From the NCBI GenBank assembly GCA_040954595.2, contig CM082580.2:12476909-12540908 (forward strand): a stretch of DNA of 64,000 nucleotides, in the 5' to 3' direction. A program made the position numbers and the translations under genes. Below, piece after piece: positions 26,670-58,148 of this stretch. The DNA comes from Balanoglossus misakiensis (lineage: Eukaryota; Animalia; Hemichordata). The notes beneath the pieces were generated by a model that had not been told where the DNA came from, made no database searches, and saw only the letters and a program-made list of their open reading frames with translations. Numbering within the stretch: the first letter of the stretch is position 1; each line of letters begins with the position of its first letter.

Positions 26670-29715
<3,046 letters not shown>

Positions 29716-30499
29716 ATTGGCGTGATATAAATAAGCAGTCTCGAGAAATGCTGTAAATTGGTCTAAATTATTGCATATGCTGAGTGGAAGAGAAATAAAG
29801 CTGCCTCCAGGATCACAGAACGAAGCACAGTTCGCCGGTCTAACCTCTAACATGCACTATCAACTTTGACCCTTGACCCTTGTGGCGTCCCTAAGTACCC
29901 TTCGATCGAGTTGGAATTTGATTCATTCTGCACGAGCGTAGCTAAAAGTAAGGACCGTACGTTTACCTTTCCAGCGATTGCTGTTATAAGAATGGTAGGT
30001 CAAAATATGCAGTTCCATTCCTTTATTTGCTTCCTGGAAGAAACTAAGAATGCACGACAATTTGTGTTTGACTTGGTTTTGAAATCTAAACTGTAGCTGA
30101 GTGCAACGGACGTGTTAATCTATTACGTCAACGACATTTAAATAGTGTATTTTAAACTGGAAGTGTTGGCAAAATGCTGGTACTATTTCCACCTGTTCAC
30201 AGTTGAAATGGTGTTACTTTCTCATATGTAAATAATTGATATAATCGGGTTCATATACATTTGGTTGACAACAGTCCAATTTTAATTTGAAACTCCCTCA
30301 TGCTCACTCCCTCCTTCAAAAAGAACCTTGGATCCAGCTGTCACGTGATATTGCACCTGTTTTAGGATGGCGTAAATATTATCCAGTGTGACTCTAGTGT
30401 TATTAATACAACAACAGTGTCTGTAGTCTATTCAAATTTGTTCTGAAATTGATGAAACAGTGTCATATGTATTCATAATTTCTTCAGTCTGCAGATGAA

Positions 30500-34161: not shown

Positions 34162-34398
34162 TGGTATTCAAGACAGCAGTGCAGTGTTCAACAAAGTTCA
34201 TGCAAAGACTTTAGATTTCTTCCCTGTTCATATTACCATTCGCGAGAAGCTAATGTTCTTTGAAAAATGTTATGTACTGGGGTATCACAGCAAGCTCACA
34301 AAACTCCAAGTGGAGAGGTGCTCATTCTGGATGTTTGGGGAACTTACTTCAGAGCATTTACCACCGCCAGTGGGCAGTATTACAGGCCTCAACCAGCA

Positions 34399-34490
34399 TT
34401 AACCCTTTCACCGCAATAGTTTGGTCAAAATCCATTGTTTTTGTGGTATAGTTGGACCTGTATACAGGGTAATGGGGGTGATAGGTTTAT
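34399..34490. mobile_element. Short degenerate piggyBac-like MITE in a 3' UTR
   Basis: Starts TTAACCCTTTCACC and ends GGTGATAGGTTTAT, a degenerate match to GGTGAAAGGGTTAA. Confidence 0.4.
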
Positions 34491-35148
34491 AAAGAGCAGC
34501 TGTCCGTGGTGAAGTCATGGTTGCTGGGGTCCACAACACACCTGCCATCATAATATACACAGTTTGTCTCAGCAATGAATATTGCAGGTTCATGCAGGAG
34601 TAGAGTTGTCACAAATCAGCATGTTGCAATACAGCACGGAAGCTTAAACCGTCAGTGTTTTAACTGTGGTGTTGTGTTGTGTTGTGTTGTGAACAAAGGT
34701 TTACATATTTTATAGTTCATATTAGTTGTTTATATTAATGTTGTTAAGTAGTTTTATCAGTTTGTTCATTTTAACAGTTTGACTAACATAATCATGATAA
34801 AAAGTTTTACCACTTGCCCTGATGGAATTCAGAGGGAACTACACAAGAAAATAAACCAGCATTGTCTTTAAAATTCACAGTTGTCATGTTATTGTAGTGT
34901 AGAAAATTTTACTGAATTTATGAGTAAATAAATTTACCATTTTCAAATGCTCAAATGTCTGTACATTATTTTTATACAACATTTCTTATGGCACACCAAC
35001 CTCACACTGAAATTCAGACTCACAAATATGAAAACAGTTCAATTTGGCTGTTAAAATTCAGAGCAAAGTACATGAACATGTATACTGATTATGTACAATT
35101 AAACGTCCATTGGCAAACATTTCTGAAATCACTGCTCCTCTTGGCGTT

Positions 35149-36132
35149 TTACTGCTTTGTCAAAAGCCCTGTGTCTGGTGCCGACGTCCAAATGACTTTC
35201 TGAATTTCTCTGAAATCGGGATGTTTAGCGTCTCGCACAAGCTGTAGCAACATGGATTCACTGGTTGTGATAAAGGCACCACTCTGTCGCATTCTCTCAA
35301 GGGCATAAAGTCTGGAGAAACAGAAGGAGAAAAGAAACTTGAATTATAAGTCTGTAATAGTACAACTATGCAACTTCTGTAACTTGTCAGTAATCTTTAC
35401 TGAAGCACATGATTTGAATGCGACCAACAACTGTCATTACCTAATAAAGCATAATATGGTATGCTTTTGTACATGATAAAAATGTTAATTGATATGGCAG
35501 ATACACCTACCTGTCCACCATACTTCTGGAAGAACACGCATCCGCTATGACATGTACGTCAATGTCATTATCAATGAGATCAAGTGCTGTAGCTTGAATG
35601 CATGCCTGTGTTTCAATCCCACACAGGACCACTGATTTTACACCAAGTTTCTTCACATGCTCTTCAATTTCTGGCACCATCATGGTGAAACAAGTCTTTT
35701 CTACTTTCTTGGAACCCTCTACGATAAGCTCTGGCACAGTTGGGCCCAAACCTGAAATAGACAACACATGTCATGATACTCAATAAATTTCCTGTTCAAG
35801 GAATTGTTCATTAATCATTTAATGCTAGATGGCATCTTTTCCTTTCCTTGGTCTTTGAGGTAGACCAGGACCTAGCTGTGGTAACGCAGCTGTATGATTG
35901 CATAATGATAATAGATTACTCGTTTATGTAAAAAACTTAGTCTACATTTACCTTTCGGGTATTGCTCTGTTGTAATGATCGGCATTTTCAGAATTTTAGC
36001 TGCTGCAAGCATGCGTCCAGCGACTTCAATTATTTGAGGAAAGTATTTTATCGTAGGGCGGAATTTCTCCTGCAGGTCGCAGAGAAATAATGCCGACGAG
36101 TTGACAGCAATCTTTCCTACTCGGGAAGCCAT
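35149..36132 (-). CDS. ISOC2: Isochorismatase domain-containing protein, 3 coding exons
   Basis: [90 protein letters not shown]. The short N-terminus favours ISOC2 over ISOC1. Confidence 0.88.
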
Positions 36133-36760
36133 GTTGAACTGGGGTGTGACCTTTGACCCCAGTCAGGTGGTTGCTGTCACATGTGTCAGCTACACAGCTG
36201 TATTGTCGATCGTATACATGATATATCTAGTATGTTAACTTAATATTAAAGCGGTTAAACTATCAGATAGGGTACTGAATGTCCTAATCTATCGCCTGAT
36301 CTGTAAATACAATGACCACCGCTGGATAAGCAGGTGTGTAACTTGCTTCAGTGACATTCTTGCATGAGTATTACGTCTCAGATCCCATGTCAATTATCAT
36401 GATATTGTATTTCATGTGTTTGCTAGCACTGTGTAGCAGTGTGGTTGATTTGGATTAAAGAGACTATGACTCTGATCTATCAGTGACGAATTTGTAGCTA
36501 GACAAAATCACGCCATGATGACCTTAGACTGATGTCGATTATTATTCGAACATGCGCCACGTGGCAAAACTTGACTAGTACAAATGTTGAACAGATAGTT
36601 ACTTCTTTCATAATAAAACTAAACAAGATAGTGTTTAATACTGTTTTCATTGAAATAAAGTTTTGAAAATTATAAATTCATTTTCATTTCAGGTTTAATC
36701 AACTTCAACAAGACAACAGAAATAAGTAAACGTCATTTGTATTCTCTTCTGCGTCTTATA

Positions 36761-39700
36761 ATGGTATCCATGGCAATGAAGAGGGGGTTGATCTTGCCAT
36801 TTGTGGCTCTAAGCTTGATTTGCATACAAAATGTGGAGGGAGTCAAGCACAGTAATGTTGTGCTGATTGGTGCAACAGGAGATTTGGCCAAGAAGTATCT
36901 CTGGCAGGGATTCTTCAATTTATTCATAGGTTAGTTGATACATATTGCATATCTTAGTAGTTGGGGATAAGAAATTGATGTTGTCTCCCCCCTATTTAAA
37001 TGGACAATTATCCACTGCATTGTTTATAACAACCATGTCATATTTAACGTCATGTAATTATAACTATTTGATTAATTTGTTTCTCAGCAAAATCGGACGA
37101 CAATAACATCTTCCATTTTTACGGTGGTGCAAGGGCGGAGAAAGAGAAGGGAGAACTTCTGTTGCAGAAAGTCCTGGAAGAAACAGTGACATGTCGCGGC
37201 ATCGAAAGAAGCGACTGTGAGGAAATGAGGTCAAAGTTCATACAGGCAACGGAGTATCACCAATTGAAGCATTCCCAGCACTATGCAGATCTAGCTATGG
37301 CTATGGAAAAGGCGATGATGGCTGACAAGGATGCAGTGGAGCTCGGAACATTGTTTTATCTCTCTGTTCCACCGTTCACGTATGCAGATATAGTCACTGC
37401 CATAAACACAGGTAAAAACTATCAATATCTTCACTTGGTTTGACCCTGTGGCTGTCAGTGAACTGATTGCATCTTTGTACAGGGAGATGGATTAATATTT
37501 TTCATATGACATCATGAGATTGTAGACAAACTTTTGATGACTCTATCTCTTGTAGAATGCCGACCAGTTGGTGACAATGCCTGGCTGCGAGTGGTGTTGG
37601 AGAAACCCTTTGGGAAAGATACAACATCAGCTGAGAAACTTTCCAAAGACATCGAGGCCCATCTCAAAGAGGAAGAGGTTTACAGGATAGATCATTATCT
37701 GGGAAAGCTTGGTAAGAACATACAGTTTTTTGCATAATGATTTGTTGTAAATGACATTGTTGTATAGAGGAAGGTGTGTCTATGTGCAAACCTTCAGAGG
37801 ACTTCAATAAATATATCCATGTACTTGAGTCCCATCTTTTATTTTATTTATAGGTGTGAAACAGATTCTGCCATTCAGATTCCAAAACAGACTGATTTAC
37901 GACAAACTGTGGAACAAAGATCACATTGAAAGAATTGAGATCGTCATGAAAGAAGATATGGATGTCAAGGGTCAGTTGACAGCAATTATATTTTCAAAAA
38001 GAGTGGATAAGGAAATGTTACTTTATATCAAGATGCTTCTGTGGAATTCAAATCAGCCCAGCATCTGTCTCATGGTGCAGCATGTCATGATCAATAGAAG
38101 TCTAGAAATTATGTCGAAAATGCCAATGAACAATGACACATTTAATTGAATTTCTCCCTTTGACAGGTCGCATGGGATTTTATGATGAATATGGGGTCAT
38201 CAGAGATGTCTTGCAAAATCATCTGACTGAGATGCTTGCCCTGGTCACCATGGAGATCCCAGACAACATCAGCGATGTGGCAGAGCACCACAGACGTAAA
38301 CTTCACGTGATGAAACAGATACGGCCAGTGTCATCAGAGAATTGTGTCGTTGGCCAGTACAGAGACTACAATGATCAGATTCGAGCGGAACTCAAAAAAG
38401 CACATGACTTTGAAAGCCTCACTCCAACGTACGCGACAGTTGCCATGGAAATAAACAATCCCCGCTGGAAAGGAGTTCCGCTTGTTCTTATGGCCGGCAA
38501 GATGTTGGACGAGAAGACAAGCTACGTGAGAATTAAATTCAAACAAAATATCCTTCGTGTCACTATGAGTGAAAACAGTTCAAACTTCTGCCAACCCAGA
38601 CAAATTTTGTTTGATGCCAGTGCATCTGATTCCAAAACACCTGTCCTGTTAGTCTCTAAGACATTACCACAGCCGGAGGTTTCCAGCAACTTGAAGTTGG
38701 CTGAGACTGATTCTGCAAAGGAAGTGTTCGGTTCGCCAGCTTCTGACTACTACATGTATACTGCAGATGGTAATCCCAGTGCATACAGTAATTTAATACA
38801 AGCCGTTTATGAAGGGCAAAAGGACATGTTTGTAGGAACAGAAGATTTGCTAGTATCTTGGAAGATATGGACACCCCTACTTGAAAGCATTGAGACCAGG
38901 AAACCCAGAGCATACCCAGGTGGTACGGCCAATGCCAATTGGTTGGATGTTGTAACCCTTGGCAGCAAGGTCAAATATGTTACTGACATTTCACTGGTCG
39001 GAATAGATGCACCCAGCCAATCACAAGACATCAAAAGTGTTCCAGCAAGTTTCCGGAATCAACCACTTGTCTCGGGGAGGACAGAGGTCATTCTGAGGCA
39101 GTTAAGCCACGATCTGGAAGCACTAGCCAGAGAGTACGTTGCAGTGGATGGTTCGTTCCACATGGCATTGTCAGGGGGCACCACCCCTAACTTGCTGTTT
39201 CAACACCTGGTTCTGAACGCAGTGGAGTTCCCGTGGGATAGAACGCACATTTGGCAGGTTGACGAAAGATGCGTGGATTCCAAGAGTCACTTGCTGAATT
39301 TCAACAGTCTGCTGGAAAATTTATTGCAGTATGTGCCTGTTCCTCAGAGTAATATCCATTCCATGCCAGTGGAGCTGACAAAGAGTGAATACGAAGAGGG
39401 AAAAGATTTAGGAAGTGCCATGTACGAAGCTGAAATCAAAAATCTCATTCCCCACCAGTCTCTCGATTTCATTTTACTGGGCGTCGGTGGAGATGGACAC
39501 ACTGCATCTCTGTTTCCAGGGCAACCAGAAGAAGACGACAATGAAGAATTGGTGGCATTAGTGGACAACGGGCCAAAAGATCAATCACCGGAAAGACTGA
39601 CAATGACCCTGAACTTCATCAACAGGGCCAAGAACGCTGCAGTCCTAATTTGTGGCCAGAGCAAGAAAGGCATTGTGTCTTTGTTGCAAGACGTAGGCAG

Positions 39701-39785
39701 AGATGCAAAGAAATGGCCAATCACAGGTGTCGATTTGATTGATGGTGATATGGCCTGGTACGTTGATTACGACGCTTTGCTGTGA
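36761..39785 (+). CDS. H6PD: GDH/6PGL endoplasmic bifunctional protein (hexose-6-phosphate dehydrogenase), 5 coding exons
   Basis: Signal peptide, [42 protein letters not shown], then a 6PGL domain ([28 protein letters not shown]). Confidence 0.97.
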
Positions 39786-43200: not shown

Positions 43201-45402
43201 CCCCTTCTCCCTCCTAGAAATCACAAATGCAGGGAACATAAGTGCCAATCACAATACACTACATGTACTGAAGACAGAATATTACCCTTGAAAGTTTCCC
43301 ATATGCAGATGAAATTTTTCATGTAACATGCAGGTCAAATCTTTTTTACAAGGCAGTAAGGAAGGCATATCAGGAAAACATGTACTTCAAAGGCACCAGA
43401 TGTCAGAGCGAGCACTGATGTCTTGGAAAACAGAAGCTTTGTAATATAAGTTGAGCTATCAATGGATAGTATACTTACTCCATACATTTCGTAACGTTCT
43501 TCAGCCAGTATTCGAGCACCGACACGTTCTGGCGTCGTGGGTGGAGGAAAGTTGCCTGGTTCGTTGGGCGGTACATCCACTGTCTCCACGACAACAAAGT
43601 CGTGCCATTCAATCTGTGAATAGGCAACTGTGGGAAGAACAGTACATGTATTAAATTGGATGTGGAAAAACGCAGCAGTTACACTTCTGATTTATTCAGT
43701 ATTTTCACTAACTTTGGTAGAAATTCACACATTCTTTAAGAATGTTTATAATTCAAAACTCTCACCTCTTTCCCGTTCCCTTTCTTCCTCTTCCTTTTTT
43801 CTCAACCTTTCCTCATGTTTTGCCCACTCCACACGGTGTTTGACTTGGTCTAGGATATGTTTGGGATTCTCAGAGTCATCCTGCAGTTTGTTCATCAAGT
43901 CTTTGGGGGGTATCAACACCTTGCATTTGTAAAAAAAAAAAACAATCATTTAATTAAATCAATCGGTGTTGTAATTAACACTTGTAATTTATATAATATA
44001 GTCAATGATCCCTTACCTTAGTGTACTGTTCCACCAGTTTAGTGAAGTAGTGGAACAGACTGTGCTGCGGCCGCAAGAAATCAAACTGGTAGTTGCGCTG
44101 TTCTCGGTTCATCAGATTGGTCAGGAACTGTCGGCCGTTCCTGGCCACAAACTGAGCGGTCAGCTTGACCACATCCAAATCGTAGGCGGCGATCGACGGT
44201 GGATCAGCAATGAACTCATACTCTGGTGGAGGCTCTTTCGGTACGACTGGTTCCACTTGGACTTGAGAAGCCGGTTTGGTTAACTGCATGAGCTGCAGCG
44301 AGCAAACAAAAAAGGTAAGTAATTGTGAAATACAGAAAGCATGGCTAATAGGGTTTTACATGTACACTGACTGTAAAATGAATACAACCATAAAGCACAG
44401 TTCCACTATACGTCACCACTTTGCATAGACACACAAACCTGGGAGAAACACAAGAACTGACATAACAAAGATACACATCAATGAATGATCATGTAGACAT
44501 GGCATTACCTTAGGTAGCATGGCAGAAGAACCCAGCGGCTCGCTGGCTTTTCCCTCCTGGAAATCCTTGACTTTGTGACGATAGTATGCATGGTATGGAT
44601 CATTGGGGTTCAAGAAATTAAACTTGGGGTTGTTGATTTCGTTCTGACGAATCCTGGTTTCGAATTCAGGTCCTGAAATGAACACAGATGATATTGTTGA
44701 AAAGTGTCATTATCAAATTAGAGGACCAACTCCATGTAATGATACCATTGCAACAATACTAACAGTAACAGTATCATACCCATGCAGATTTTGTTTTTAC
44801 AAATCATACCTTAAAGTGTGGCCTATATATGTATATTCCTTTTGGACAGTTTTAATTAAGTGACTTACCATTCCTTGCTACAAAACTGGCAGTCTTGTCA
44901 ACAATATCTGTTCAACTGGTCAGGAAAAATAGCTGTAACAGCCCAAATTAAATATTATTAATTTGATTATCCTTCCTGGTTGGAAGGGTTACAAATCTCA
45001 TTGGAATTTGGAGGCCTCATTGGACACACATCCTACAACCATGGAGGTACTAGAGTACCTCTAGTACCTCCATGCTACAACTTACAAGCTACATACGTCA
45101 AAATGCAAGTACTCCTTGTTCTTGCCAACTTGGCATACAAACAGTGAAATACAAACTTCCAACTGATACCTCGGGTTTGTCGGCATACAGTGGAAGTGAG
45201 ATAAGGACAAACACCAGAACTGAAAACAGTTCCCTTGTGGTCATCTTAACACAACGTCATGAAAACGAAACATGGTAAGGATACTTCGCACTTCAGGCGG
45301 AGGGTAAATGATGCCGACGATTGGCTTCCCGGATTGGCTTTCTTCTTTCTTTTCCGGCAACTCTTCCTTCTCGTTGACCGCATCTGCCACTGCAGCCGGC
45401 AT
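40258..45402 (-). CDS. SF3A1: Splicing factor 3A subunit 1, multi-exon
   Basis: GIIYPPPEVRNIVDKTASFVARNGPEFE, second SURP VVKLTAQFVARNGRQFL, YLISPITGEKIPADKMQEHMRI, Pro-rich region, ubiquitin-like C-terminus ..LQLKERGGRKR*. Confidence 0.98.
44908..45284 (-). other. U12-type GT-AG intron in SF3A1 (first coding intron)
   Basis: 5' site GTATCCTTA, branch-like TTTTCCTGAC ~11 nt before the AG; splicing restores PEVRN|IVDKTAS. Confidence 0.88.
45040..45074. mobile_element. 35-bp palindromic micro-element with 7-bp TSD (P-element-like termini)
   Basis: CATGGAGGTACTAGAG-TAC-CTCTAGTACCTCCATG flanked by CTACAAC at 45033-39 and 45075-81. Confidence 0.75.
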
Positions 45403-46128
45403 CTTGGTGTTTCTATGGATACTCCTAGATTACGAAAATGGCGTCTCTAGGACGTAAAAATAATCAGAATCGAGTACGCGTGTGAAGCCTCGTCCACATG
45501 GATTGTACACAAAACATCCAATATGGCCGCCGTCAAAATTGCTGCGCTTGCCGGACGATGGTGGCGCTCTTGCAGCGTCCCTGCGCGCGCGACACCCGCG
45601 CTACACCGACAGGGGCGACAAACGTTCTGCGCATGTGCCACAGGAAGTAAACAGTTACATAGACTTATGCTGGAGACGTAACTTTTTTTCAAAAGGGATG
45701 AAAAATACCCAAAAGGGATGGACAAAATGACACATAAAGCTCGTGTGAACCATGATCTAAAACATACCTCATGTCCACATCAATCTAACCCTGGCCTAAT
45801 AAGATATCGCGACTTGAATTTGGTGGCGCGTAATTTGAGCATGCACAACGTCATGTCAGTGTTGTGTCAGTTTGAAATAAACATTTCAAAGTTATGCAGA
45901 TACTGTGGTTTCGACTTAGGCTAATAAAACTTCACCTACGTCATGTTGATAGCTGTTTAACAATCGTGTGATTTTCACGAAAAGTATGATGTGTACTACC
46001 GCCTTAGTTGAGAAATAAACAATAATCCGTTCTCATGAGCAACAGCAGACGATGTAAACATTTGGCGCGAACGTTTCCAAAAGTGGACCAGTCGTTACCA
46101 TGGTAGTCTAGTTGTAAACACTGCCAAG

Positions 46129-49100
46129 ATGTGCGACAACGACTGTGTCTTAGCTGGTAAAACCAGGTCACAAAACAAATGTAGTGGGAAGTTATATGCT
46201 ATAACGGATGCGATAAGAAGATGTTGCAAAGGGTTAGTGAATGACGGCGATGTTTTTAGTTTTATTTGTAAATATCATTTTCGTCGTGTGACAAGAGACG
46301 ACAGTCGCCGTTGCTCTTGTCCGGCACCATGGTCACACAGTCAGACGATCAGCGACCGCCCGATCCCGTCAAGGCTGTACAAGGTTTTTGATGAAGTAGG
46401 CGAGTCCGACAGAAGTTACATGCCTGGAACACGATGGTGTCATAGGTGCAAGTTACGAGCCGACTCAGAGTTTTTCCCCGGCTTCCAAGCTTACGTTCCT
46501 CCCAGCCAAAGTAAATCCGTTGACCTCAGAGACAGATCCCCCTTGGTAAGTTTCAAGCATCTATATCTTCTGATTACATGTTTTCAATGTAGAAACGCAC
46601 ACTGGGATCGTGGGAGGTTCACTTCGGGTTCAATGACACAATATGTACGTACGAAAGTCGTATTATGAAACAAAACAAACGTAAGAAAGGGAAGTCCCTG
46701 ACACTTCAATAATTGAGGGCGCAAACGCTGGGGGGGGGGGGGGTTCTTGAGAGAATGAAAATGATAATGTCTTGTTGTTTTTTCATTATATTTATCAGGT
46801 TCTACACAAGGAATATCTGTGTTTTGTGAAAAAGTAATTGATACATTGATGTGATTGTCCTATTTCTTCAACTCAACACTTGTACATGTATTTTCTATCA
46901 TACAGTACCCAATCCAATTTGACCAGAAAGAGACACAGTATTGTGGTACAGTTCTTTCAAGTAGTGAGGGTCACGTATTGTTGTCAAGTAGTCAATGGAG
47001 AAGCATTATTTCGAAACTAGAAGGTTAGTATTTGATTTTAACACAGTTACAGAGAGTTAATAAGATTTTGTGCTATTTATCTAACGAATAAGGCCAGTTT
47101 TGATATCATTACCACCAGATGCAAGACATACAAAGAGGTAAATCAAATCTGCACCCTTTCAATATAACATTGTTTGGTCTGAGACTGTGCAGTTACTAAA
47201 ATATGACTTCATTAGGTGTAAGACTTTTCACATGCAATGTAAGGCAACTAAATAAAATGTGAACAGTGTCTAGCAGCAAGTAGGTTATTTGGTAATTCTG
47301 ATAATAATTGTGGGTTATAATTTTCCTCAAAATTCCCAGCATCAACTTTTCCCACTCAACTGAGGACCCTACAGGAAATGGTGTACAGGGCACAACAGAA
47401 TGGTGTTTCTTTTGATCTGAAGAAGTTGGAGTTCTTTGTAAAGAAACATGTACCGGATCTGTATAGTTTGATCTATACAGCACTAGTTGACCCAGCAACA
47501 TCGACACAAAGAAAAAAACAACAAGAGATGAGAGTACTGGCCACCTTAAATTTACTCACATTTTACAGGTGAATAATTTTGTTTCTTTTTGTAGCTTATT
47601 TACATTGTTGTGTTCACTGAAACACACCCAATGGTCAGTTGTTTAAAACTACTTGAGTGTACCAAAATCTCAACCTATTTCTTTTCAATCATAAAATTAG
47701 ATCACAGAAGACAAGCCAGTTCCAAGAGGCCATGGGATTTTATTTAACCATGCAAGGGTTGTCACAGGAAGCCCTGGATATGTGTCGGGTGTTGGGTCTC
47801 TCACAGCACTCAAGAACCTTGGGGAGGAAGAAACAAGTAATTTCCAAAGAACACAGGAGAAATGTGCAGACATTCATTAAGAAGAAGTTACAAGTAGGTT
47901 TTTTATATTAAAAGGAAATTTTGCACTTTTTCAGAGATTTAATTTGCACTTTTTCAGTGATTTAATTTAGTGAAATATACATGTATTTATAAATGAGTTT
48001 CATTTTTGAGTTTACCCAAAAGCCAGAAAGAAAAGTTCAACACCCATTTAAGTGAAAATCAATGTTTTTATTCCTTGACGTTTAATGTAAAAATCCATCT
48101 CTTTATAATAATTTATGTAGTAAGGTTAGTTGTAAATAGAAAACATACCTGTGTGTGAGTCTATCTAAAACACATTGGTTATGGAGACCAGGCTACATGA
48201 TTGCTATCCTAGCTTTTACAAGATGATGCTCTTTTTGTACAATGTCATTCATGTTCCAATTTATTGTATAGTCAATCTATGACAGTCATAGGGGTGTTAT
48301 GCATGATGTCCTATAATTACAAAGTCGTACACCTTTTACCTTTGACTCTTTTTATTTTGATTCCAAGGAAAGAGGAAAGACATTCATCCTGGCATTAATC
48401 GACGACTTCCATAACATACATGGGTTTAAATCGATGGCTTCTGGCCATAAGGACCTCAAAACCAGTAAGGCAGTACACATGGCGACTACAATGTTGGATA
48501 TTCTTCCAATTGAGCCACTCAATCTGCCAGATGATGGATCTATGCACAGGTAAGGGTAAAACATATTAATGATTACCTTATGACAGTCTTTGCAAAAATA
48601 ATATACTGTATACATGTTTTACAGTTTTCTGAACAATACAAAAAGTATAATAAAACAACTGTACTATTTGCGTCATACGTATACTATATATACATGTGGA
48701 CATGACAAAAATGTTCTTTTTACTTTGCATCCAGGACCATATTCATATACGACAAAAATGGCAAACAAATTCCAGTACGAGGAGGGATAGCACCCCATGT
48801 AATGAGGAGAGAATTTAAATACTTTATGAAAGATTATTCCATGAGCTTTTTGGAATCTTTACCATCTACCTTTCATAAGCTTAACACTCAACATGCTATC
48901 TCATCATTGAAGAATATGAGGTAAGGTCCCACCGTTGTCCGATGCCACCAAACATTTGTGTGTTCGTTCGGTCAGTCAATCAATCAGTCAGTTACAGGAA
49001 ATACAACAGTACTGTAATAAAATTAAAGTCTTTTATGATGTTACATTGTTTATCATGAATGTTTCCCCACTAAATAAAGAATGCAAAGTTATACTTACCA

Positions 49101-52100
49101 AATAAACCACATGTACTTAAGCAATAAAACACCCCCAGCCATGGTATATCACGAGATTTTGACCAGTTCACGACATATACGCACGAGCGATAGCGAGTGC
49201 GTATATGGAGTTGAACTGGTCAAAATCGAGTGGTATACCATGGCTGGGGGTGTTTTATTGCTATTATATTATGCCAGTATATTGAAACTTTGCATAAAAC
49301 ATTTTAAAAAGGCATTTTCTTTAACTATGATATATGACTGTGGTATATGGCTAATATATCACGGTCACGTGTCGTGTCTCGACCAATCAAATAGCGTGAT
49401 TTACACCATCAATATACTGGTATAATATAATACATATTTTATCACCTTTGTATTTCTGATGTAAATCACACCCAGTGAATCTGAAAAAGAAATTAGAGAA
49501 TGTAACTGTCTGTTGCAGTGAATGAATATAATTGTTGATGTAATTTCTTTGCTCTAGCATTTACAACCTTTGCTCAATTCTCTTTTGTTTTTAATTTTAA
49601 GGCCATATACTGACATTGATGCAGAAGAATTGCACACCCTTGACACAACCATTCTGATTGATGAGATTGAACAGCAACTAAAGAATAAAGATGACCTGTA
49701 CAACCTGTGGACCATGCTTCTCAATTTGCCACAACTGAAGACATACACTTCACAGCATGCTATTTTGGCACCAGGTGATTGGCCAGTGTGGTACTTTGGG
49801 AAAAAAATCATCGCCTCTTACAATGAAAATGACACAGTTGTCCCAAGAGAAGTTCTTTCTTTCATACCTACTGTTGGTCAATTTCATATTGCTTTAAATG
49901 CATCCCGTGATATTGTTATCTGTTCAAAGTTTTTTTTCCAGTTACTGTGCAATGGAGTCTTTGATAAGCGTTTTATATTAGCTGCCTTGCCTAAACCCTA
50001 CAAGGTCTCACTCTGTATTTTTCTAGCATTCAGTGGTTGGGTTCGCATCCGTCGTTATGTAATTGGAAAACTGACTGTCTGTAAATCTGTTGAAGTGCAA
50101 TTCTTGCTTTTTCTTCTTGATGAATTAATCCCGCTTGTTTATTTACATTACCCTGTTTTTGTTCAAGGTAATGACAGAAAGATGTTACTGAATGTCATGA
50201 AACGCCTGGAAATCTACTTCATCATAGCCAACAGACATCACTACAACAAATCTTTGCTGAGTTTGCTTTCTGATGACCTATACCACACATCACACTTACC
50301 CGGTTACACAAATCTGACACAACACCACCAACATATCATCACTGAGAAGAAAGTGGAGCTCTTTCACTCATCACTTCGACACCACATACAACCACATGAT
50401 GATGGCAACACAATACAAAGACAAGCACACATGCTACACTATACAAAGCACAACATTCTAATTCAAGAATTCTTACAACTGCACAACCATGGCAAAGACG
50501 ACTATGACCTGACACTGTTAGCTGGCAGAAGTGCTGAGACACTACTTGACATTGTCAATCAGGTTATGAAATCTGCAGCTGAACACCGACCCACACCAAT
50601 TAACAATGGAACATATCACCTCCCAACATTCAATGCAGACATCACATCAAAATGCCTACCGCTGGGTTTCAGGTGGTCTCACCAACACCGACCAAATGAA
50701 GACCTCCTGTGTGACAGTCCAACCTGTTCAACCTCTTCTTCTTCCAATCTTTGCAAACGTCTCACCTGTGGCCACACATATCACATTACCTGCCTCAGTC
50801 AAACTGGCTGTTCTATTTGTTCCCCTTTCCTAACAGCTGAAGTTGTTCGCCTGTCTAACAGCTGGAATGAGGGCATTGTGAAGGAAATGCCACAACGGCC
50901 TCCACAAGAGTCCACAGAGACAGAGCACAGTGATGGCTTTACGTCCACTTCACACACACATGGGAAAGAGTACTACCTAACAACACAATTTGAAGATGAC
51001 ATCAAATCTCGTGCAGCTTTAATACCACAAGTTAGAACTGGTCAATACCAAAACCACCAACACAGGGAGATGAGTACACACACTACATGCACCTCCAATG
51101 CTGGTTTCTCCAATGTTTCTTCTTCAACACAACTTCCTCAGCTATCTGTTCTTTCCCCCACTGAATCACAACAAGCACAGACACCCAACTCAAACACCAA
51201 TAATGTTCAACAAACACAAACACCATCACTGCCAGCACAAACATCTTCTCCCTCATCAAATGATGATACACATTTACAACAATCACAGACATCCAACCTA
51301 TCGACCAGCGGCGGAGAAACACAACAATCACAGACATCAGCACCTCCAGAACCCACAGCCACATGCAGTCACTCCACTTTTACTCACAAACAGACACAAA
51401 TACAAGAAAACACAAACAAACAACTTCATAAATATTCTCACTTACGACATTTGGTTTGGTTGAAACCAAAACCACAAATGCACGGCACCATTAATTACTG
51501 GCTATGTCACTACATCATTTCACAAGGAACAATACACTCCAATAATGTACGTTCAGGCAGCAATGCTTGCACCTTGATTTGTCTACTGTTTGCGCAATGG
51601 TTTTACCAAAGATGTCCTACAAATATGCTAACTACATCGACAGTGTTACCTCAAGAATGGTTGGCTGGATTCATTATGTCGTGCGTTCGTGGAAATGATG
51701 TACATGATGTATACCGATTAAATGCAATTCACAACTCATTGAACCTTTCACCATCAGAGGCAATTAAAGTGCTAGGAAACAAATTAAATTTACAATTTCA
51801 GTCAAATGAAATTGGACCGGTTTATACTTGTCACAGGTCAGAACCGAGGCGAGGGTTATTAGAGTTTTATTTTGGTTATTGTTTAACCAAAAGACAAAGT
51901 GCATTAATATATGTTAGAAATGAAATGTCGGTGTTATTTATAGTGAACCAGGGCAACATTCTGCTTGTAGATTCGCATAGTCACAGAAATAGTCAGAGTG
52001 GTGCTTTGTTTGCCCAAGTTAAATATTCCAATGCAGTTGATTTGTTGAGATGGTACGACAACTTTATTGGCATTGATGCAGAGTATCATATCGGTACCGT

Positions 52101-52119
52101 AACACTAATAGGATTTTAA
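46129..52119 (+). CDS. Putative transposase (Academ/DUF6589-like) fused to a RING-H2-like finger and a C76-like cysteine protease; ~1280 aa, 7 exons
   Basis: Exons 46129-46545, 46906-47023, 47340-47568, 47701-47893, 48368-48549, 48735-48920, 49602-52119 join by GT-AG introns into 3843 nt with no internal stop. Motifs: N-terminal Cys/His clusters, LIDDFHNIH, PGDWP, GQFHIALN, HHYNK, VELFHS, CGHTYHITC..CSIC, SQG..GSNACTLIC, VDSHSH. Confidence 0.8.
49120..49428. mobile_element. Nested non-autonomous element with ~143-bp palindrome in the last transposase intron
   Basis: AGCAATAAAACACCCCCAGCCATGGTATA..TTTTGACCAGTTCA..GCACGAGCGATAGCGAGTGC..TGAACTGGTCAAAA..TATACCATGGCTGGGGGTGTTTTATTGCT (49120-49262), followed by a CACGTG/CCAATCA tail; right boundary approximate. 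Confidence 0.6.
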
Positions 52120-52750
52120 TTTTGCAACTGATAACAGATATAGAAATATGTAAATACCTGTAACTTATAACTTATGATCATATTTATTACCAAATCTTGA
52201 CAAAGTCAATAATAACAGTTTCTATCTTGTAAGTACTGAATTAGATACTTCAGAGCAAATGTATAGTTGAGAAGATATCTGCAATTAAATACGAGGGGGA
52301 AAATCAATTATATCTAAGCTTACCTTCATCAATTCAAGTTGAGAGTTGACCATCCATAGTTGTCATAGTGACCTTGTCTCTGTTGTTTCTGTAAATAAAT
52401 AATGGGCAGTGTACATTAAGGAATACATAGCAAATGTTTTGAATTGCTTTGTTTATGTAAATATGTAATTTTGGATATTGATGTTTTCAGAGAAGTGGTC
52501 GATTTAATCTACATGTATGTACATAATATAGATGGGAAATGATCATATATTTTTATAATAAATATTTTCGTTATTTATACATTGGATTTTCTCTTTGATA
52601 ACATCTCTCATACCAATACAATCACAATTAAACATAGCACAACAACCACCAGACTCACCTCGTTTATGTTTTCCGTAGTACCGGTAGACGGAATCGATAT
52701 TCTAATTTATTGGAACATGGTGGAAGCATCTATAGGTGGTGCCATATTGG

Positions 52751-52818
52751 TATAGGTCGCACCGTAGTTGACAGAGCTCAGAAAATTCTAAGTGCTGTCA
52801 ACTACGGTGCGACCTGTG
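52751..52818. mobile_element. 68-bp hairpin micro-element with 7-bp TSD, nested in the transposon right arm
   Basis: 21-bp perfect stem AGGTCGCACCGTAGTTGACAG / CTGTCAACTACGGTGCGACCT; termini TATAGG../..CCTGTG; ATATTGG at 52744-50 and 52819-25. Confidence 0.7.
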
Positions 52819-54153
52819 ATATTGGCGCAACTAACAGAACGCCAAGACTCTATCGGCCATGAATTTACCAAGTTTCATCTCAAGGGCTACGGCCGATCCG
52901 CGAAATGCGATCCGCAGCTATGTTTTGAAACCAAAGACAAACATGCAAAACACTGTGGGTAAACACTTTCCCGCGGCTACACCGTTTCTACTACAGAGTT
53001 TACCGAGTGACAGTTTGTCCAATCATATTATCAAAAGACGTAAGAAATAACAATAATAATATATCTGCATTGGCGTTACCAGATTGCAGCCGAAACAACT
53101 TATAGAAGGTAAAACTTGGCCAGACTCCTGGCTAGACGCGTATCAGCTGGTTGAAAACACTCGCCCACATTGTACTTCCGGTAGCGCATGCGCAGAACGT
53201 TTGTCGCCCCTGTGCGCTACACCCGATATTGCGCTATTCGGCCTACAAAGATTTGTTCCACTTGACAAGACATTTCAACTCAGTTAGCCTATTTAGGCGT
53301 ATTTGGAAATTCAACCAACTTTTAACAAAGTTAGTCAAAGTACGACTTAGGCAGACCCAATGTGTGTAACTGTCCACGCAAAGTTTGGTGCAGTGAGAAT
53401 TAGGGCCTGCTAACTTTAATCTGGGTTGAAGCTATTTTGCTATAAAACTGTAATACAGATAAGTGGTGTTAATTTCCGCAGTCCATCAGTATAAACGTCC
53501 ACTCTTTCTCAAATGACAAGAAGTGTGTATTTTGAAGGGCAAAATGTCGCTGTCATTATTTTGAAAATACTGAACAGGGTAGGGGCAGTACCATTTTCAA
53601 CCCCTAGGCCTACTTGTAAACAGAGAGATCACAACACGACGTCACGCACACATATGCATGGTTTATAATCCCCCAAAAAAATTATAATGTAATCATTTAA
53701 AAGGGGAATTCAAGATCAAACATAAATGACAATAGTTCTGATGAAAACTGAAATCAAATTGTCAACTTCGGATATGTGTGGTAAATTAGTGGTCTAACTG
53801 CCTGGCCATTTCCTTTGTAATCGATCGCTGCCAAATTCATTGTCACTTACAGCAATAAATAATCTAAAGTGCAATAAAACAACGTGGCATTCTGGTTTAT
53901 CACGTGACTGTTTTTGTCATATATCAGGACGTCACCCAACATATGCCAACACAAACACAAAGTCTTGCTTCGGTCAAGTTCCAGTTGTAGACACACGACG
54001 TTCTGGGTTTGCTATTGTGCACGTGACTTCAAGTGGTGAGTAAGAAACTTTATGTTATGTACACTGAAATACACCGATTTTTCAGAGAGTGCGGCGTGGC
54101 CTTCTAATATTTCGTTTTACATATTTTTTCCAGACGAGTGGATTGTACTAAAG

Positions 54154-54765
54154 ATGAATTCCGCATGCTGTGTAATCTTCATCATGACGTTCATCGTCAC
54201 CTGTAACTGTGCCTGTTATCCGAGTGGAAGTGAGTGAACATTTAAAAAAAAAAAAATGAATACCCAAATGAGCTGTATGCCAAGTTCAGCCCAAAACACT
54301 ACGAATAAATGTGACCAGGGTTTATATAACGAGACGACAATTCCTTGTTTTTATTAACTTGCAGCGAATAACTTGGAAGGGCCCCTCTGTGTTCCAGAGG
54401 AAACTTGGATGTCGAATTGCTTCCGCTGCTCATGTGATGCCTCCGGATGGAATTATGAATGTTGCTCGTAAGGACGTTACATTTGGTTATGTCGATGACG
54501 CAAAAACAAAGCCGTTTGCCTCAACGTGGGGGAGGGAGGGGGAGGGGATGAGAGAAAGAGTAATTTGAGAAATAACATTATTGGGCCGCATCTAACAATA
54601 TGATCTTCTCATGTTTGCTTTTATTCTTCTCATTCTAGTCCACCTTATCCGGTTTTCGACCGCACCATATGCAAGTCTACTTTCGATTCTACAACGTGTG
54701 AATATGAAGTGACTCCAATCGGCAACTCCGACGAAGAATGTGAAATCCATGGGTGGGTGGGATGA
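54154..54765 (+). CDS. Beta-microseminoprotein (PSP94)-like secreted protein, copy 1, ~101 aa
   Basis: Exons 54154-54229, 54365-54467, 54639-54765: signal peptide then ACYPSG..C..W..NCFRCSC..ECCS..ICK..FD..TCEYEV..EECEIHGWVG*; 10 mature Cys in the PSP94 pattern. Confidence 0.85.
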
Positions 54766-55907
54766 TCTCCGAGTCAACAGATGGTCGAGTCTTTCCGTTG
54801 GTATATACACGTTTGTGCCTTGCCTTCCAGCGTGTGTTATCATTTTCAAACCGATTTGAATGACGTAGCCATCATTTCCAATTTATGTATATTTCACGAC
54901 TGAAAAAAGCTGAAGAACCGATTAAAGTAACACTGAAATCTCAGGAATGTTGTTAGTGTTTGTGTTCGGCTTTCGCATCGCAATATACTGTACTGAACGA
55001 CAGGTCATTTGGAAGTCAATTCGGTCACCTGTTTGCTGGTACTTGAGGGCACCAGATGCCAGTCATTGTCACCAAAACGCTAGACAAGTAACGAGAGCGT
55101 TTAGTGAGCCAATCAGTGTCTTGGACAAGCGTGAGCGATGATCTTATTCCGCATTATCCAATTAACGTGTTTGTCGCAAATGTAAATCCAGGGTTGCTAA
55201 AACTAGACAACTAGGCTACACTCACTATGATGATGATGATGATGAAAGATCTTTACCAGAACACGCGACATTTAGTGTACTTCCTTCACTCAATGCAACT
55301 TTCAAATAAAATCGATTTCTTTAATGTCGACGATTCACAGGATCCAAACGACATTGAACGCTTAGAGGTCAAATAGACAATTGTTAATTTACGGCAATCA
55401 ACCTCTTGATAAGGTCAGAGGTTTATTAAATCAATCATCATTAATAGACGGCTTTGTCCTCGCCCAGCTCACTAGGACCTAATTTCAAAGTCATGATATT
55501 GCCGACCGGCTGTCACGCGTATGCCCAGACGGTGTGGCGTGAATATTTTGCAATTGTTTAAATGAATGACCAAAAAACTTTCTCTAAATAAGCGAACAAA
55601 ATCCTTCACATAAATCAGTCGTTATAGTTTGAAACACAGCTGGCACCTTATTACCCCTGCTTGACACCCAATACGATTTTAATTGGCCTAGCGATAATTA
55701 CATCGTTATCATCAACACTTTCGAACAACACTTTTGCTCTCGAGGTCTAATTTTCTGAACTTTTGTAAAGAATATTGGGCCACTTCTGGCACGTTCCAGC
55801 AATTTATTTTCACTCTGTATAAAAATTCATTACCGTTATTGAAGAGAAGTTTTATTTCCTGCGGGTGATTAGTTAGGCAATTTGATCTACTGGCTTTGTG
55901 AGCAGAC

Positions 55908-56045
55908 TGTATAAATTGGATTGTGGACAGCTCACAGCTGTACAGTGCAGGCGGACCACCTCCACAAGAACTCCAAGATCAACAACTCACACAATCGTCG
56001 TTGACTTATTTAAAACACCAGCCAAATATTTCCTACTTGGTGAGT
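55908..56045 (+). promoter_or_regulatory. TATA box and probable non-coding first exon of MSMB-like copy 2
   Basis: TATAAA near 55910, GTGAGT donor near 56040, AG acceptor near 56667 just before ATG 56692. Confidence 0.5.
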
Positions 56046-56691
56046 CTGGCGTTTTATTGTATTAACTTGATCCGTGTTATCAGGATATTGAATGTGTACA
56101 TGACTCGTAATGCACACAGTTTGTTCTGTCCAACGGGCATGAGATCTAAAATCTCAACACATTCTCACCGTCCCTCGTTTAAACGTCTCCCTGTTCTACT
56201 GAAAGTTACTAGCGACAAATAAATCTCAACACCTATCGGAGACGTTATGCATGACTTTTGACGTTTTGGGTGGTGATAATGAAATATTTCTGTCGTGAAC
56301 ATGTGGGAAATATTTCGCCAAGTTCTTCGGTGACCGCGGCCATTGTCCGAAGGAACTAATCAACAGGTGGTTATCTTGTGTGCCCTCTTTCTATCTGACG
56401 AAGAAACATGTTCAGCCACTGATTGATTGGCCCATAACAGCTGAAAAAGTCTAAGTAAAAGCATCAGTATAAGTCGATACTCGTGAAATTCAAGTTATTT
56501 ATTCAGAACTCAATGACGATTTCTAATGTGGCCTTTCTCATTCTCATGACTCCCATGACAGAACACTTCCACATATTTGTCTTTTCGATTCGCAAAATAA
56601 TTCCTTGGCATTATTCTGTATCATTTTTGTGGTGTTTTAACAGCTTGATAGAGTTTGTCTAATACAGTAACTGAAGCAATCCTGAAGAGTC

Positions 56692-57433
56692 ATGAAGATC
56701 GACATGATCGCCATTGTTGTCATGACAACTCTGATTGTCAGCTGTTACGCCAGCTGTGGTTTTAGGGGTGAGTTTTGGTGGCGTTGTTGTTATCGCGTTT
56801 GTCATTATCATCTCAATTTTTGCAACATCCTAACTATGACTAGGTATCAGAAAAACTCTGATTGAATTACTAGTATATTGTATTGGCCTATCTATACACA
56901 GCCAACTGGCCGCATATTCGAATTCTTTAAAATCACTCTTCTTTCAGGCGTGGAGCCTCCATGTGAACCTGGTGAAACGCACGTTCTGGAGGAAAACTGT
57001 TATCGATGCACTTGCCTGGAAAACGGTGTGACGGAGAAATGTTGCGGGTGAGTGGACTGTTTGGGGTGGTCTCTTCTCGCGAATGTAAAGAACAGTGCGC
57101 GGCAGATAAAGAAAAAACAGAAAGACAGACAGACAACTGACTGTCGTACCATAAAAGACGCATATGTACGTATGTTGTTGTGCAACTTCTCGAAGCACGT
57201 ATTCGCCATGAAGTTTTGTAGATGGAGATCACTCAAGCCTCCAAGAAATACCTTGATACTCTTACAAAAATGACGGTTCTGTTTTTATCTCTCTTTCAAG
57301 ACCTGATTATCCTACTTCGATGTCCCCCGGGTGTGTGGTGGGAGAACTGAACACGGTCACCTGTGAATTTGAAGTTGTCCGTCTCCATGGTGATCCGGAA
57401 GAACCCTGCACAGTGTATGGCTACGTTGGCTAA
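56692..57433 (+). CDS. Beta-microseminoprotein (PSP94)-like secreted protein, copy 2, ~102 aa
   Basis: Exons 56692-56767, 56948-57047, 57301-57433: MKIDMIAIVVMTTLIVSCYASCGFRGVEPPCEPGE..NCYRCTC..KCCG..GCV..TCEFEVV..EPCTVYGYVG*; same intron phases (1,2) as copy 1. Confidence 0.85.
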
Positions 57434-58148
57434 TTGGTTCCATAGTGTGTCTTACTAAACTGACTCTTTAAAATCCACACATTTTTCACATGATTTGACG
57501 AGATACTGCACAACTTATTGTCCAAGATAAAAGTGCGCCACCATACGGTCATTCGAAGACTTAGACGAGACCCTTACGCAAGCATGCGGGCATATGGTCC
57601 ATAATCGGGTCATTCGGGCAAGAGAAACAAAAAATAAGCACCCGACTGGCGTGGCGTAGTATATGTTGATCATTGCCTATTAAAGAAATGAAAATAATCA
57701 AATACACTCATACGCGTCTTTATTAAGAGATTGGCATATCAGCGTGTTACTGCCTTCACGCTGCAATTACCCGGGTCACATCCCCGACTTTATCGACGGA
57801 CAATCGAGATCATGCCACCTCTATGACGCACTTTGATTTCGGAGGAGCTTTATAAGGTAAATGTTAATTATCAGCACCCTGGAGGAATCACTTATTATTT
57901 GCTGAGAGAATTAATTTTCAAATAATATCCAGTTATGCAGGCAAATGACCCATGGGGATCACATAATATCTTGATGATTCTTTTACGATTTTGAATGGTG
58001 TCTGTCAGCATTATATGTACTGTTACAGTGAATGCCTTCAATATTCGAACTTTTCCTGGACAAATGCCAAGATAACAAGATACAATTTTAAAATTTCCTG
58101 AGGGCGAATTAAAGACACTTTATCGCAGGAGGTAAGCATATGATAATT

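What the first reader, a model, noticed from the sequence alone, without database searches (positions are those of the whole stretch)
50710..52119. Possible ubiquitin writer and eraser on one transposase: RING-H2-like finger plus herpesvirus tegument-type deubiquitinase fold
Seen: C-x4-C..CGHTYHITC..CSIC (50710-50820), a long S/T/Q-rich linker, then SQG..GSNAC (Cys codon 51568-70), a GNDVHD helix and LLVDSHSH..GAL (DSH 51970-78). Established: peptidase C76 enzymes (UL36/BPLF1/M48 N-terminus) have Gln..Gly-x-x-Cys followed by a D-x-H motif and act as deubiquitinases/deneddylases. Inference: the element may remodel ubiquitin or NEDD8 marks to escape silencing or degradation, analogous to the SUMO proteases of Zisupton elements.
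Basis: partly seen in the sequence, partly recalled or inferred. Interest (0 to 1): 0.85.

Follow-up and report, generated by a model that had tools for sequence, protein, structure and literature searches.

The report
Intact transposon carrying a tegument-like deubiquitinase
An apparently intact jumping gene in an animal genome encodes one predicted protein that joins a likely cut-and-paste enzyme to a zinc finger and to a domain predicted to strip ubiquitin off proteins, likely protecting the enzyme from disposal; the proposed ubiquitin-adding role of the finger is doubtful.

Summary
They lie in the last exon of a seven-exon, 1280-aa gene model inside a 7.6-kb element with 42-bp terminal inverted repeats and a perfect 9-bp target duplication; one contig shows the empty site. 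The C-terminal domain is a viral-tegument-like deubiquitinase (VTD) by profile (PDB 8ADB, E 3e-6), predicted fold (Z 17 to 8ADD, 14.6 to M48) and intact Gln/Cys/Asp-x-His. Activity is untested. The finger has RING-H2 ligand order, not PHD, but lacks most usual E2-contact residues (Trp 0 of 17 relatives, basic residue 1 of 17) and also occurs in relatives without the VTD, so the "writer" half is weak. The core resembles DUF6589 (Academ-like by recall) but has no helicase or XPG. The same finger-plus-VTD layout recurs in 14 of 155 other VTD proteins. VTDs are published from Helitrons, and cnidarian VTD fusions to transposon domains are mentioned in passing. I found no paper describing this TIR element. 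The scan found the same layout earlier in a broken coral copy (e1-7769259). Verdict: new variant of a known kind; this intact copy makes the question testable.

The parts
45599..45607 (+). Left target-site duplication, 9 bp (a 10-bp reading with an asymmetric end also fits this site alone)
   Evidence: Identical to 53215-53223; other copies run on through 53214, which favours 9 bp
45608..45649 (+). Left terminal inverted repeat
   Evidence: 38 of 42 bases match the right repeat
46129..46545 (+). Predicted exon 1: start codon and Cys/His-rich N-terminal region, likely zinc-binding
   Evidence: tblastn of P0002 and GT-AG model; 54% identical to P0002
46906..47023 (+). Predicted exon 2
47340..47568 (+). 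Predicted exon 3 (helical region)
   Evidence: the only one of three tested acceptors that keeps the frame
47701..47893 (+). Predicted exon 4
48368..48549 (+). Predicted exon 5 with DDFH (D331/D332, codons 48401-48406), inferred first catalytic Asp
   Evidence: DD conserved in P0002, P0113, P0101, L001, L002; codons
48735..48920 (+). Predicted exon 6
49117..49430 (.). Nested high-copy repeat with internal hairpins (MITE-like) inside intron 6; not part of the element proper
   Evidence: Contigs of X1, X2 and X3 join 49116 to 49431; summed depth above 100,000 in X1 and X2; hairpins I1 and I13
49602..50709 (+). Exon 7, transposase core: GDWP (D501, 49777-79), GQFH (H537), RHHYNK, VELFH (E694, 50356-58); inferred DDE triad
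   Evidence: Motifs conserved in relatives; core 82% identical to P0002; Atlas look-alikes are DUF6589 in 28 of 30 hits
50710..50820 (+). RING-H2-like finger, C-x4-C-x13-C-x-H-x2-H-x2-C-x5-C-x2-C
   Evidence: Pattern in 0 of 5000 shuffles; best PDB sequence matches are RING-H2 ligases, E 3e-4 to 5e-3; Pfam RING hits all below cut-off
51055..51417 (+). S/T/Q-rich linker, likely disordered
   Evidence: 53% S/T/Q; 31% identical to P0002 over model residues 930-1045
51439..52119 (+). VTD (viral tegument-like deubiquitinase) domain: Q1083 (51523-25), C1098 (51568-70), D1232-x-H1234 (51970-78); stop 52117-19
   Evidence: 65% identical to P0002
53173..53214 (-). Right terminal inverted repeat
   Evidence: contigs with other flanks diverge after 53214
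53215..53223 (+). Right target-site duplication
   Evidence: empty-site joint 45597 to 53214 in one contig of X1

Best explanation
This is a 7.6-kb element with terminal inverted repeats and a 9-bp target duplication whose single predicted protein is likely a DDE cut-and-paste transposase carrying, on a long linker, a VTD domain predicted to remove ubiquitin, likely from the transposase itself or from proteins at its DNA breaks, while the RING-like finger likely serves as a structural zinc module rather than a ubiquitin ligase. Shown: repeats, duplication, open frame, motifs, conserved catalytic residues, recurrence of the layout in relatives. Predicted: splicing, the VTD fold. Inferred: the D331/332-D501-E694 triad cuts the ends and inserts with a 9-base stagger; the tethered VTD trims K48/K63-type chains, as its tested relatives do, so that the enzyme or its complex outlasts proteasomal removal; the VTD is an optional add-on, since the finger occurs without it.
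For: Element: TIRs 38 of 42, perfect duplication, empty-site joint and other flanks, stop-free 1280-aa model 64% identical to P0002. VTD: Atlas top hit 0.96, 18 of 30 hits in the Herpes_teg_N set; 8-sequence profile hits PDB 8ADB at E 3.4e-6 with Cys on Cys and DSH on DPH; model pLDDT 77.7, pTM 0.83; Foldseek ranks 1-5 and 7 are VTD or M48 chains; Z 17.0 (rmsd 2.9, 183 aligned) to 8ADD and 14.6 (3.3, 183) to 2J7Q. Cys plus D-x-H kept in 15 of 16 transposase-linked domains, one has E-x-H. VTD 65% against linker 31% identity to P0002. Two diverged contigs show 10 synonymous against 6 and 3 changed codons over the 33-40 codons leading into the domain. All three Helitron VTDs tested and Drosophila ms(3)76Ca cleave K48 chains (PMC9741609). 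Finger: Trp in the C6-C7 spacer 0 of 17, spacer only 4-9 residues, Arg/Lys after C8 1 of 17, Ile/Leu before C2 2 of 16; these are the kinds of position mutated to kill RING ligases (PMC7010608).
Against: No activity, transcript or substrate was seen. Pfam finds no Herpes_teg_N in the window's domain or P0002, and single-sequence and two-sequence PDB searches found nothing. The fold's next neighbour is the non-DUB protease AvrPphB (Z 12.4), and identity to tested VTDs is only 9-17%. The window's VTD sits on a long branch (1.37). The only PDB sequence hit is K6-specific Wc-VTD1, so linkage preference is open. The finger keeps all eight ligands, is 81% identical to P0002, and the family keeps Pro after C7 in 13 of 17 (Ser in the window) and a hydrophobic residue before C8 in 13 of 17, which an E3 would also show. 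No named transposase family matches the core in Pfam or the PDB. The empty-site joint rests on one contig with 20 letters on its short side, seen in X1 only. The two VTD-less relatives carry caveats: P0003 looks like a chimeric gene model, and L001 ends 1.4 kb after its stop with no terminal repeat seen.
Confidence: 0.6

Rival explanations
1. Writer and eraser both work: the finger is a non-canonical RING-H2 ligase and the VTD edits the chains, making a ubiquitin-editing transposase.
For: Eight ligands in RING-H2 order; nearest PDB sequences are active RING-H2 ligases such as RNF38, ARK2C and AMFR; Pro after C7 in 13 of 17; many relatives have a hydrophobic residue two after C1 (listing). Precedents: the RAG1 RING is an E3 (PMC2691831, abstract start; PMC10799480 passage); Agaricomycete VTDs are fused to RBR ligases (PMC9741609).
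Against: No Trp helix (0 of 17), basic residue after C8 in 1 of 17, Ile/Leu before C2 in 2 of 16; the window's copy has Thr, no Trp, Ser and Ser at these places. The finger is present in P0003 and L001, where no VTD was found, so the two are not obligatory partners.
Confidence: 0.15
2. The domain is an active VTD-fold protease whose main target is not K48 ubiquitin on the transposase: NEDD8 on cullins, K6 or K63 chains at DNA breaks, or a non-ubiquitin protein.
For: Tested VTDs vary: two Helitron VTDs cleave NEDD8; fungal, protist and bacterial ones prefer K6. The profile's only PDB hit is the K6 enzyme. The fold borders YopT-like non-DUB proteases.
Against: Its two named stand-alone insect relatives likely belong to the insect/nematode subfamily, whose tested member prefers K48 and ignores NEDD8; that assignment is inferred, not tested against the Drosophila sequence. 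A di-glycine in the window's linker is absent from P0002, which argues against self-cleavage there.
Confidence: 0.2
3. The VTD is a captured passenger that is inactive or not expressed, or the locus is a domesticated host gene rather than a mobile element.
For: No RNA evidence could be obtained; inactive VTDs exist in insects.
Against: Catalytic residues kept across 16 proteins, most from different 50%-identity clusters; excess of synonymous change; same exon and frame as the core; TIRs, duplication, empty site and other flanks.
Confidence: 0.05

Closest known systems
Helitron (Helentron) VTD deubiquitinases, zebrafish DrT1-VTD2 (PDB 8ADD); Erven et al. 2022, PMC9741609
   Same: VTD fold (Z 17.0), Cys plus Asp-x-His site, fused into a transposon protein
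   Different: Here the host is a TIR element with a target duplication and a likely DDE core, not a rolling-circle RepHel; the VTD is C-terminal; 9% identity; no Helitron domain among 65 longer relatives scanned
Invertebrate VTD subfamily: Drosophila ms(3)76Ca, nematode genes, cnidarian VTD fusions (PMC9741609)
   Same: Nearest sequence relatives include stand-alone beetle and wasp proteins and a sea-anemone protein; the paper notes cnidarian VTDs fused to unnamed transposon-associated domains and supposes a transposon source
   Different: Those insect and nematode genes are single-domain host genes; the paper names no TIR superfamily. In my tree the insect-containing branch lies beside, not inside, the transposase-linked group
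Herpesvirus large tegument DUBs (M48, PDB 2J7Q; UL36, BPLF1; Pfam Herpes_teg_N)
   Same: Fold (Z 14.6, rmsd 3.3, 183 aligned) and active-site order
   Different: 13-16% identity, no direct Pfam hit, C-terminal on a transposase; nothing else viral in the element
Academ superfamily, AcademH lineage (Kojima 2020; seen only second-hand in PMC10045372)
   Same: 9-bp duplication; core resembles DUF6589, which I recall as the AcademH-type transposase
   Different: No helicase (AcademH) and no XPG nuclease (AcademX); RING-like finger rather than PHD; VTD tail
RAG1 / RAG1-like transposases
   Same: A RING finger on the same chain as a transposase core
   Different: RAG1's RING is N-terminal with shown E3 activity; here the finger is RING-H2-like, follows the core and lacks usual E2 contacts; no sequence match to RAG1 in PDB searches
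Agaricomycete RBR ligase-VTD fusion proteins (PMC9741609)
   Same: A ubiquitin-ligase-type module and a VTD on one chain
   Different: Host gene, RBR type, K6-specific VTD; no transposase

Membership tests
VTD / peptidase C76 deubiquitinases | Papain-like alpha-beta-alpha fold matching M48 and DrT1-VTD2 | tested here: met
   Predicted model pLDDT 77.7; Z 17.0 to 8ADD, 14.6 to 2J7Q, 14.4 to 8ADC; Foldseek E 1e-6 to 1e-3
VTD / peptidase C76 deubiquitinases | Catalytic Cys followed far downstream by an Asp-x-His motif | tested here: met
   C1098, D1232, H1234; invariant in 8 of 8 aligned; aligned to Cys and DPH of 8ADB
VTD / peptidase C76 deubiquitinases | Gln upstream of the Cys (oxyanion role recalled from M48) | tested here: met
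   Q1083 invariant in 8 of 8; present in 15 of 16 transposase-linked domains
VTD / peptidase C76 deubiquitinases | Sequence similarity to characterised members | tested here: met
   Profile to 8ADB E 3.4e-6; Atlas 0.96; relative P0101 hits Herpes_teg_N at E 5e-4, below cut-off. No direct Pfam hit for the window's domain
VTD / peptidase C76 deubiquitinases | Cys-His distance in the active site | not testable with these tools
   The fold tool returns no coordinates
VTD / peptidase C76 deubiquitinases | Cleaves ubiquitin or NEDD8 conjugates | not testable with these tools
   Needs a bench assay
RING-H2 E3 ligases | Eight ligands in C3-H2-C3 order | tested here: met
   C812, C817, C831, H833, H836, C839, C845, C848; first pair is C-x4-C, not the usual C-x2-C
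RING-H2 E3 ligases | E2-contact hydrophobics: first Ile/Leu, central-helix Trp/Leu, Pro and Ile/Val near the last Cys pair | tested here: not met
   Window: Thr, no Trp (5-residue spacer), Ser for Pro, Ile kept. Family: Ile/Leu 2 of 16, Trp 0 of 17, Pro 13 of 17, last hydrophobic 13 of 17
RING-H2 E3 ligases | Arg/Lys directly after the last Cys | tested here: not met
   Ser in the window; 1 of 17 in the family; feature described in PMC7010608
RING-H2 E3 ligases | Cross-brace fold and ligase activity | not tested
   Both fold jobs went to the VTD; the complex job gave no answer; activity needs a bench assay
PHD finger | C4-H-C3 ligand order (recalled) | tested here: not met
   Ligands 4 and 5 are both His in all 17 fingers listed (the search pattern asked for this order); the extra Cys that gives a weak PHD_NSD hit is absent from P0002 and P0003
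AcademH DNA transposons | 9-10 bp target-site duplication | tested here: met
   feature from PMC10045372
AcademH DNA transposons | Encodes a helicase | tested here: not met
   No other ORF of 150 aa or more in the element; no helicase family in P0001 or P0002
AcademH DNA transposons | Academ-type transposase | tested here: inconclusive
   Atlas look-alikes DUF6589 in 28 of 30, top score 0.97; no Pfam DUF6589 hit; the DUF6589-Academ link is recalled and was not found in print; no Academ reference sequences were available
AcademX DNA transposons | Nuclease (XPG type, recalled) and 3-4 bp duplication | tested here: not met
   9-bp duplication; no XPG hit; duplication length
Helitron / Helentron | RepHel protein (HUH endonuclease plus helicase) | tested here: not met
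   No such family in P0001 or P0002; TIRs and 9-bp duplication present
Zisupton / KDZ transposons | Ulp1-type SUMO protease (recalled) | tested here: not met
   The fold's top matches are VTDs with Cys...Asp-x-His order; no Peptidase_C48 hit

The most novel reading that the evidence does not exclude
This is a living member of an undescribed helicase-free Academ-like transposon lineage whose transposase edits ubiquitin both ways, with a non-canonical RING-H2 ligase and a tethered VTD, and the lineage is the transposon source that was supposed but never named for domesticated animal VTD genes such as the Serinc-VTD fusions and the insect male-sterile VTDs.
Probability: 0.12. Interest if true: 0.85.

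Novelty: new variant of a known kind. Interest (0 to 1): 0.5.

Why it matters
Transposon-borne deubiquitinases have been assayed as isolated domains, but the paper that did so leaves their use to the element as a hypothesis. Here the domain sits on a one-gene, apparently intact and recently inserted cut-and-paste element with defined ends. A Cys-to-Ala comparison in an ordinary transposition assay would test directly whether a transposon uses a deubiquitinase to outlast host disposal. It also extends VTDs from rolling-circle elements to a likely DDE lineage that fits no named family cleanly, and offers a candidate donor for domesticated animal VTD genes. The appeal is to transposon and deubiquitinase specialists; each ingredient has precedent.

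Tried and rejected
No whole genome is held for this window, so copy number, other duplications and a proper dN/dS could not be measured. Single-sequence fold of the domain was useless (pLDDT 36). Pfam, single-sequence PDB and two-sequence PDB searches missed the VTD; a word-indexed search among 720-2293 aa proteins found only P0002. Viral contigs: 0 relatives among 15 and 12 pattern matches. No RNA holder listed. Finger-plus-helix dimer prediction: no answer. The wide structural search was never run. One search compared overlapping alignments and is uninformative. The AcademH paper is not held. Cluster membership of P0002 and P0003 could not be looked up. L001 could not be searched further and shows no terminal repeats. 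Rejected: PHD finger (ligand order); Helitron or viral origin (anatomy, flanking host genes); self-cleavage at the linker di-glycine (not in P0002); insect VTDs nested inside the transposase-linked group (they form a neighbouring branch; the tree has no outgroup, so direction is unknown). Whether the 16 transposase-linked VTDs form one clade is neither shown nor rejected (p-AU 0.286). Contig depth over the element exceeds the flanks in X1 (about 103-120 against 40-56), but the tool says depth is no copy number, so I rest nothing on it.
Full report
Setting. The window is animal DNA: an 87-bp satellite fills 817-18923, followed by intron-bearing host genes such as TSSC4 and H6PD. The closest relative of the protein in question is a Ptychodera flava protein, P0002, so the host is likely a hemichordate or near relative (inference). 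No whole genome is held.

Observation. The finger pattern arose in 0 of 5000 shuffles. A loose version of the protease motif arose in 1204 of 5000, so that motif needed other support.

The element. A 42-bp inverted repeat pair (38 of 42 matching) bounds 45608-53214, flanked by a perfect 9-bp duplication. This site alone would also fit 10 bp with an uneven end, but contigs from other sites match through 53214 and then diverge (two in X1, one in X2), which favours 9. One contig of run X1 joins 45597 to 53214, the empty site (20 letters on the short side, not seen in X2 or X3; all three runs are one sample and may be the window's source). A high-copy repeat at 49117-49430 is skipped by element contigs in all three runs and is a nested insertion in an intron. 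Seven GT-AG exons give a stop-free 1280-aa model, 64% identical to P0002. The splicing is predicted; no RNA was available. Identity by region: N-terminal Cys-rich 54%, helical 63%, core 82%, finger 81%, linker 31%, C-terminal domain 65%.

The core. DDFH, GDWP, GxFH, RHY and VExxHS motifs recur in P0002, P0003, P0101, P0113 and loci L001, L002 and L004. I read D331/332, D501 and E694 as the DDE triad (inference). Pfam and PDB sequence searches name no family. Atlas look-alikes of the P0002 core are DUF6589 in 28 of 30 hits (the Atlas notes its statistics were not measured for parts of proteins). I recall DUF6589 as the AcademH-type transposase; the one paper holding the term does not say so, and the AcademH paper was not held. 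AcademH makes 9-10 bp duplications and has a helicase, while AcademX makes 3-4 bp and has a nuclease (PMC10045372 passage). This element has the 9-bp duplication and neither enzyme, so I call it Academ-like and do not file it.

The protease domain. Direct Pfam and PDB searches miss it. The Atlas ranks Herpes_teg_N clusters first (0.96; 18 of 30 hits in that set; recognition 2275, just under its 2300 mark). Six relatives give an eight-row alignment with invariant Gln, SNACT, GN..H and D-x-H. That profile finds one PDB sequence, the VTD 8ADB, at E 3.4e-6, with Cys on Cys and DSH on DPH. The model built on it has pLDDT 77.7. Foldseek's six matches under E 0.001 are five VTD or M48 chains and AvrPphB. 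The second aligner gives Z 17.0 to the Helitron VTD 8ADD, 14.6 to M48, 14.4 to Wc-VTD1, 12.4 to AvrPphB and 8.8 to the next. The Cys-His distance could not be read out. Two diverged contigs covering 33-40 codons that lead into the domain show 10 synonymous against 6 and 3 changed codons, with about four times more replacement than silent sites. That count uses 18 of 23 and 14 of 16 differences, stops short of the Cys, and comes from contigs selected for likeness.

Spread of the layout. The profile finds 889 proteins at E up to 0.001. Of 155 hits held besides P0002, 14 also match the finger region of this transposase, and two (P0101, P0113) match the core as well. With the window and P0002, 15 of 16 keep Cys and D-x-H, and one has E-x-H. 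The domain ends within 25 residues of the C-terminus in 144 of 157 proteins. None of 65 longer hits scanned has a Helitron family. P0003 and L001 have core and finger but no VTD, with the caveats that P0003 begins with an unrelated QRICH1 piece and L001 ends 1.4 kb after its stop.

The finger. It has RING-H2 ligand order, and its nearest PDB sequences are RING-H2 ligases (E 3e-4 to 5e-3). The weak PHD match rests on a Cys that relatives lack. Among 17 fingers (18 examined, one truncated), none has Trp between C6 and C7, that spacer is 4-9 residues, and 1 has Arg/Lys after C8; 13 keep Pro after C7 and 13 a hydrophobic residue before C8. Ile/Leu before C2 occurs in 2 of 16, though many have a hydrophobic residue two after C1. 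Such positions are the ones mutated to inactivate RING ligases (PMC7010608; my mapping of positions partly rests on recall). The window's finger lacks all but one. I put ligase activity near 0.15-0.2 and favour a structural or binding role.

Tree. A quick tree of 115 domains (157 examined; 40 dropped as partial, 2 by length; midpoint root, no outgroup; the careful search did not finish) places 13 of the 16 transposase-linked domains with five Serinc-VTD fusion proteins in one supported group (SH-aLRT 95-97). The two named insect proteins lie on a separate 36-row branch (99). One clade for the 16 is not rejected (p-AU 0.286) and not shown. The Serinc fusions are candidate domestications. A donor role for the insect genes stays open.

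Mechanism. Most likely the transposase binds the repeats, excises the element and inserts with a 9-base stagger. The VTD, on a fast-changing tether, would remove ubiquitin within reach, most plausibly K48-type chains on the enzyme or its partners. The tested Helitron and Drosophila VTDs cleave K48 chains, and protection from the proteasome is the authors' own proposal (PMC9741609). Probabilities: VTD fold 0.95, active deubiquitinase or deneddylase 0.7, the whole reading 0.6.

What is known. PMC9741609 (I read parts 1, 2, 3, 5 and 6 of 9, passages, and supplement 1 as text; not part 4, parts 7-9, supplements 2-3 or the zip, and figures are not held) describes VTDs in Helitrons. It notes cnidarian VTDs fused to unnamed transposon-associated domains and fungal VTDs fused to RBR ligases; 'Academ' and 'Zisupton' do not occur in its main text. 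PMC11417382 (passages) reports Herpes_teg_N in Helitron-like elements. RAG1's RING ligase is cited from a search listing (PMC2691831) and a passage of PMC10799480. PMC5751038, PMC10294476, PMC5753468, PMC10643670, 10.1101/2021.09.26.461848 and 10.1101/2025.10.24.684071 were seen as passages only and added no description of this element. Searches found no paper describing a VTD on a TIR transposase. Repbase and subscription journals are outside the library, and unread supplements or the Kojima paper could hold it.

Verdict. Real feature, eraser assignment strong, writer doubtful, each ingredient with precedent, and the combination on an intact TIR element not found in print. New variant of a known kind; interest 0.5.

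Noticed in passing
P0071, P0077, P0089, P0103, P0136: Five proteins from different 50% clusters fuse a Serinc membrane domain to a C-terminal VTD; they form one branch inside the group holding most transposase-linked VTDs. Candidate domestication; taxonomy unknown.
   Followed up: partly
P0013, P0027, P0030, P0033, P0051, P0075, P0128, P0142, P0150: Nine VTD proteins share an upstream helical region with a WWSTYH motif (homeodomain-like by eye) and a low-complexity linker; possibly a second transposon lineage carrying the same VTD subfamily.
   Followed up: partly
window 45400-45599: The element sits about 200 bp upstream of the start codon of a minus-strand host gene that I recognise by eye as SF3A1 (name recalled, not tested), so it likely interrupts that promoter region.
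   Followed up: no
window 49117-49430: High-copy MITE-like repeat nested in intron 6, absent from element contigs in all three runs.
   Followed up: partly
window 48150-48195: A 46-bp stretch in intron 4 with many unrelated loose ends in the contigs, likely a short dispersed repeat.
   Followed up: no
window 52754-52815: A 30-bp, 90% inverted repeat with a 2-base gap in the element's 3' non-coding region.
   Followed up: no
window 817-18923: 87-bp satellite, about 208 copies at 98% match, open in two frames for over 2000 codons; flanked by diverged 87-bp units.
   Followed up: partly
window 51426-51547: Contigs about 85% alike show diverged sister subfamilies of the element's VTD region in the same sample, with a different linker.
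   Followed up: partly
P0003: The Exaiptasia model joins a QRICH1 domain (E 1.8e-9) to this transposase's C-terminal half; likely a nested insertion or a merged gene model.
   Followed up: no
P0094, P0100, P0101, P0119: These relatives carry an extra Cys/His cluster (C-x2-C...H...C) in the linker between finger and VTD that the window's copy lacks.
   Followed up: no
window 54100-57440: Two neighbouring small genes for likely secreted cysteine-rich proteins, beta-microseminoprotein-like by eye (recalled, not tested).
   Followed up: no
window 20200-39785: Ordinary host genes: TSSC4 and H6PD by Pfam; actin-related, DnaJ, ankyrin-repeat and isochorismatase-like exons by eye.
   Followed up: no
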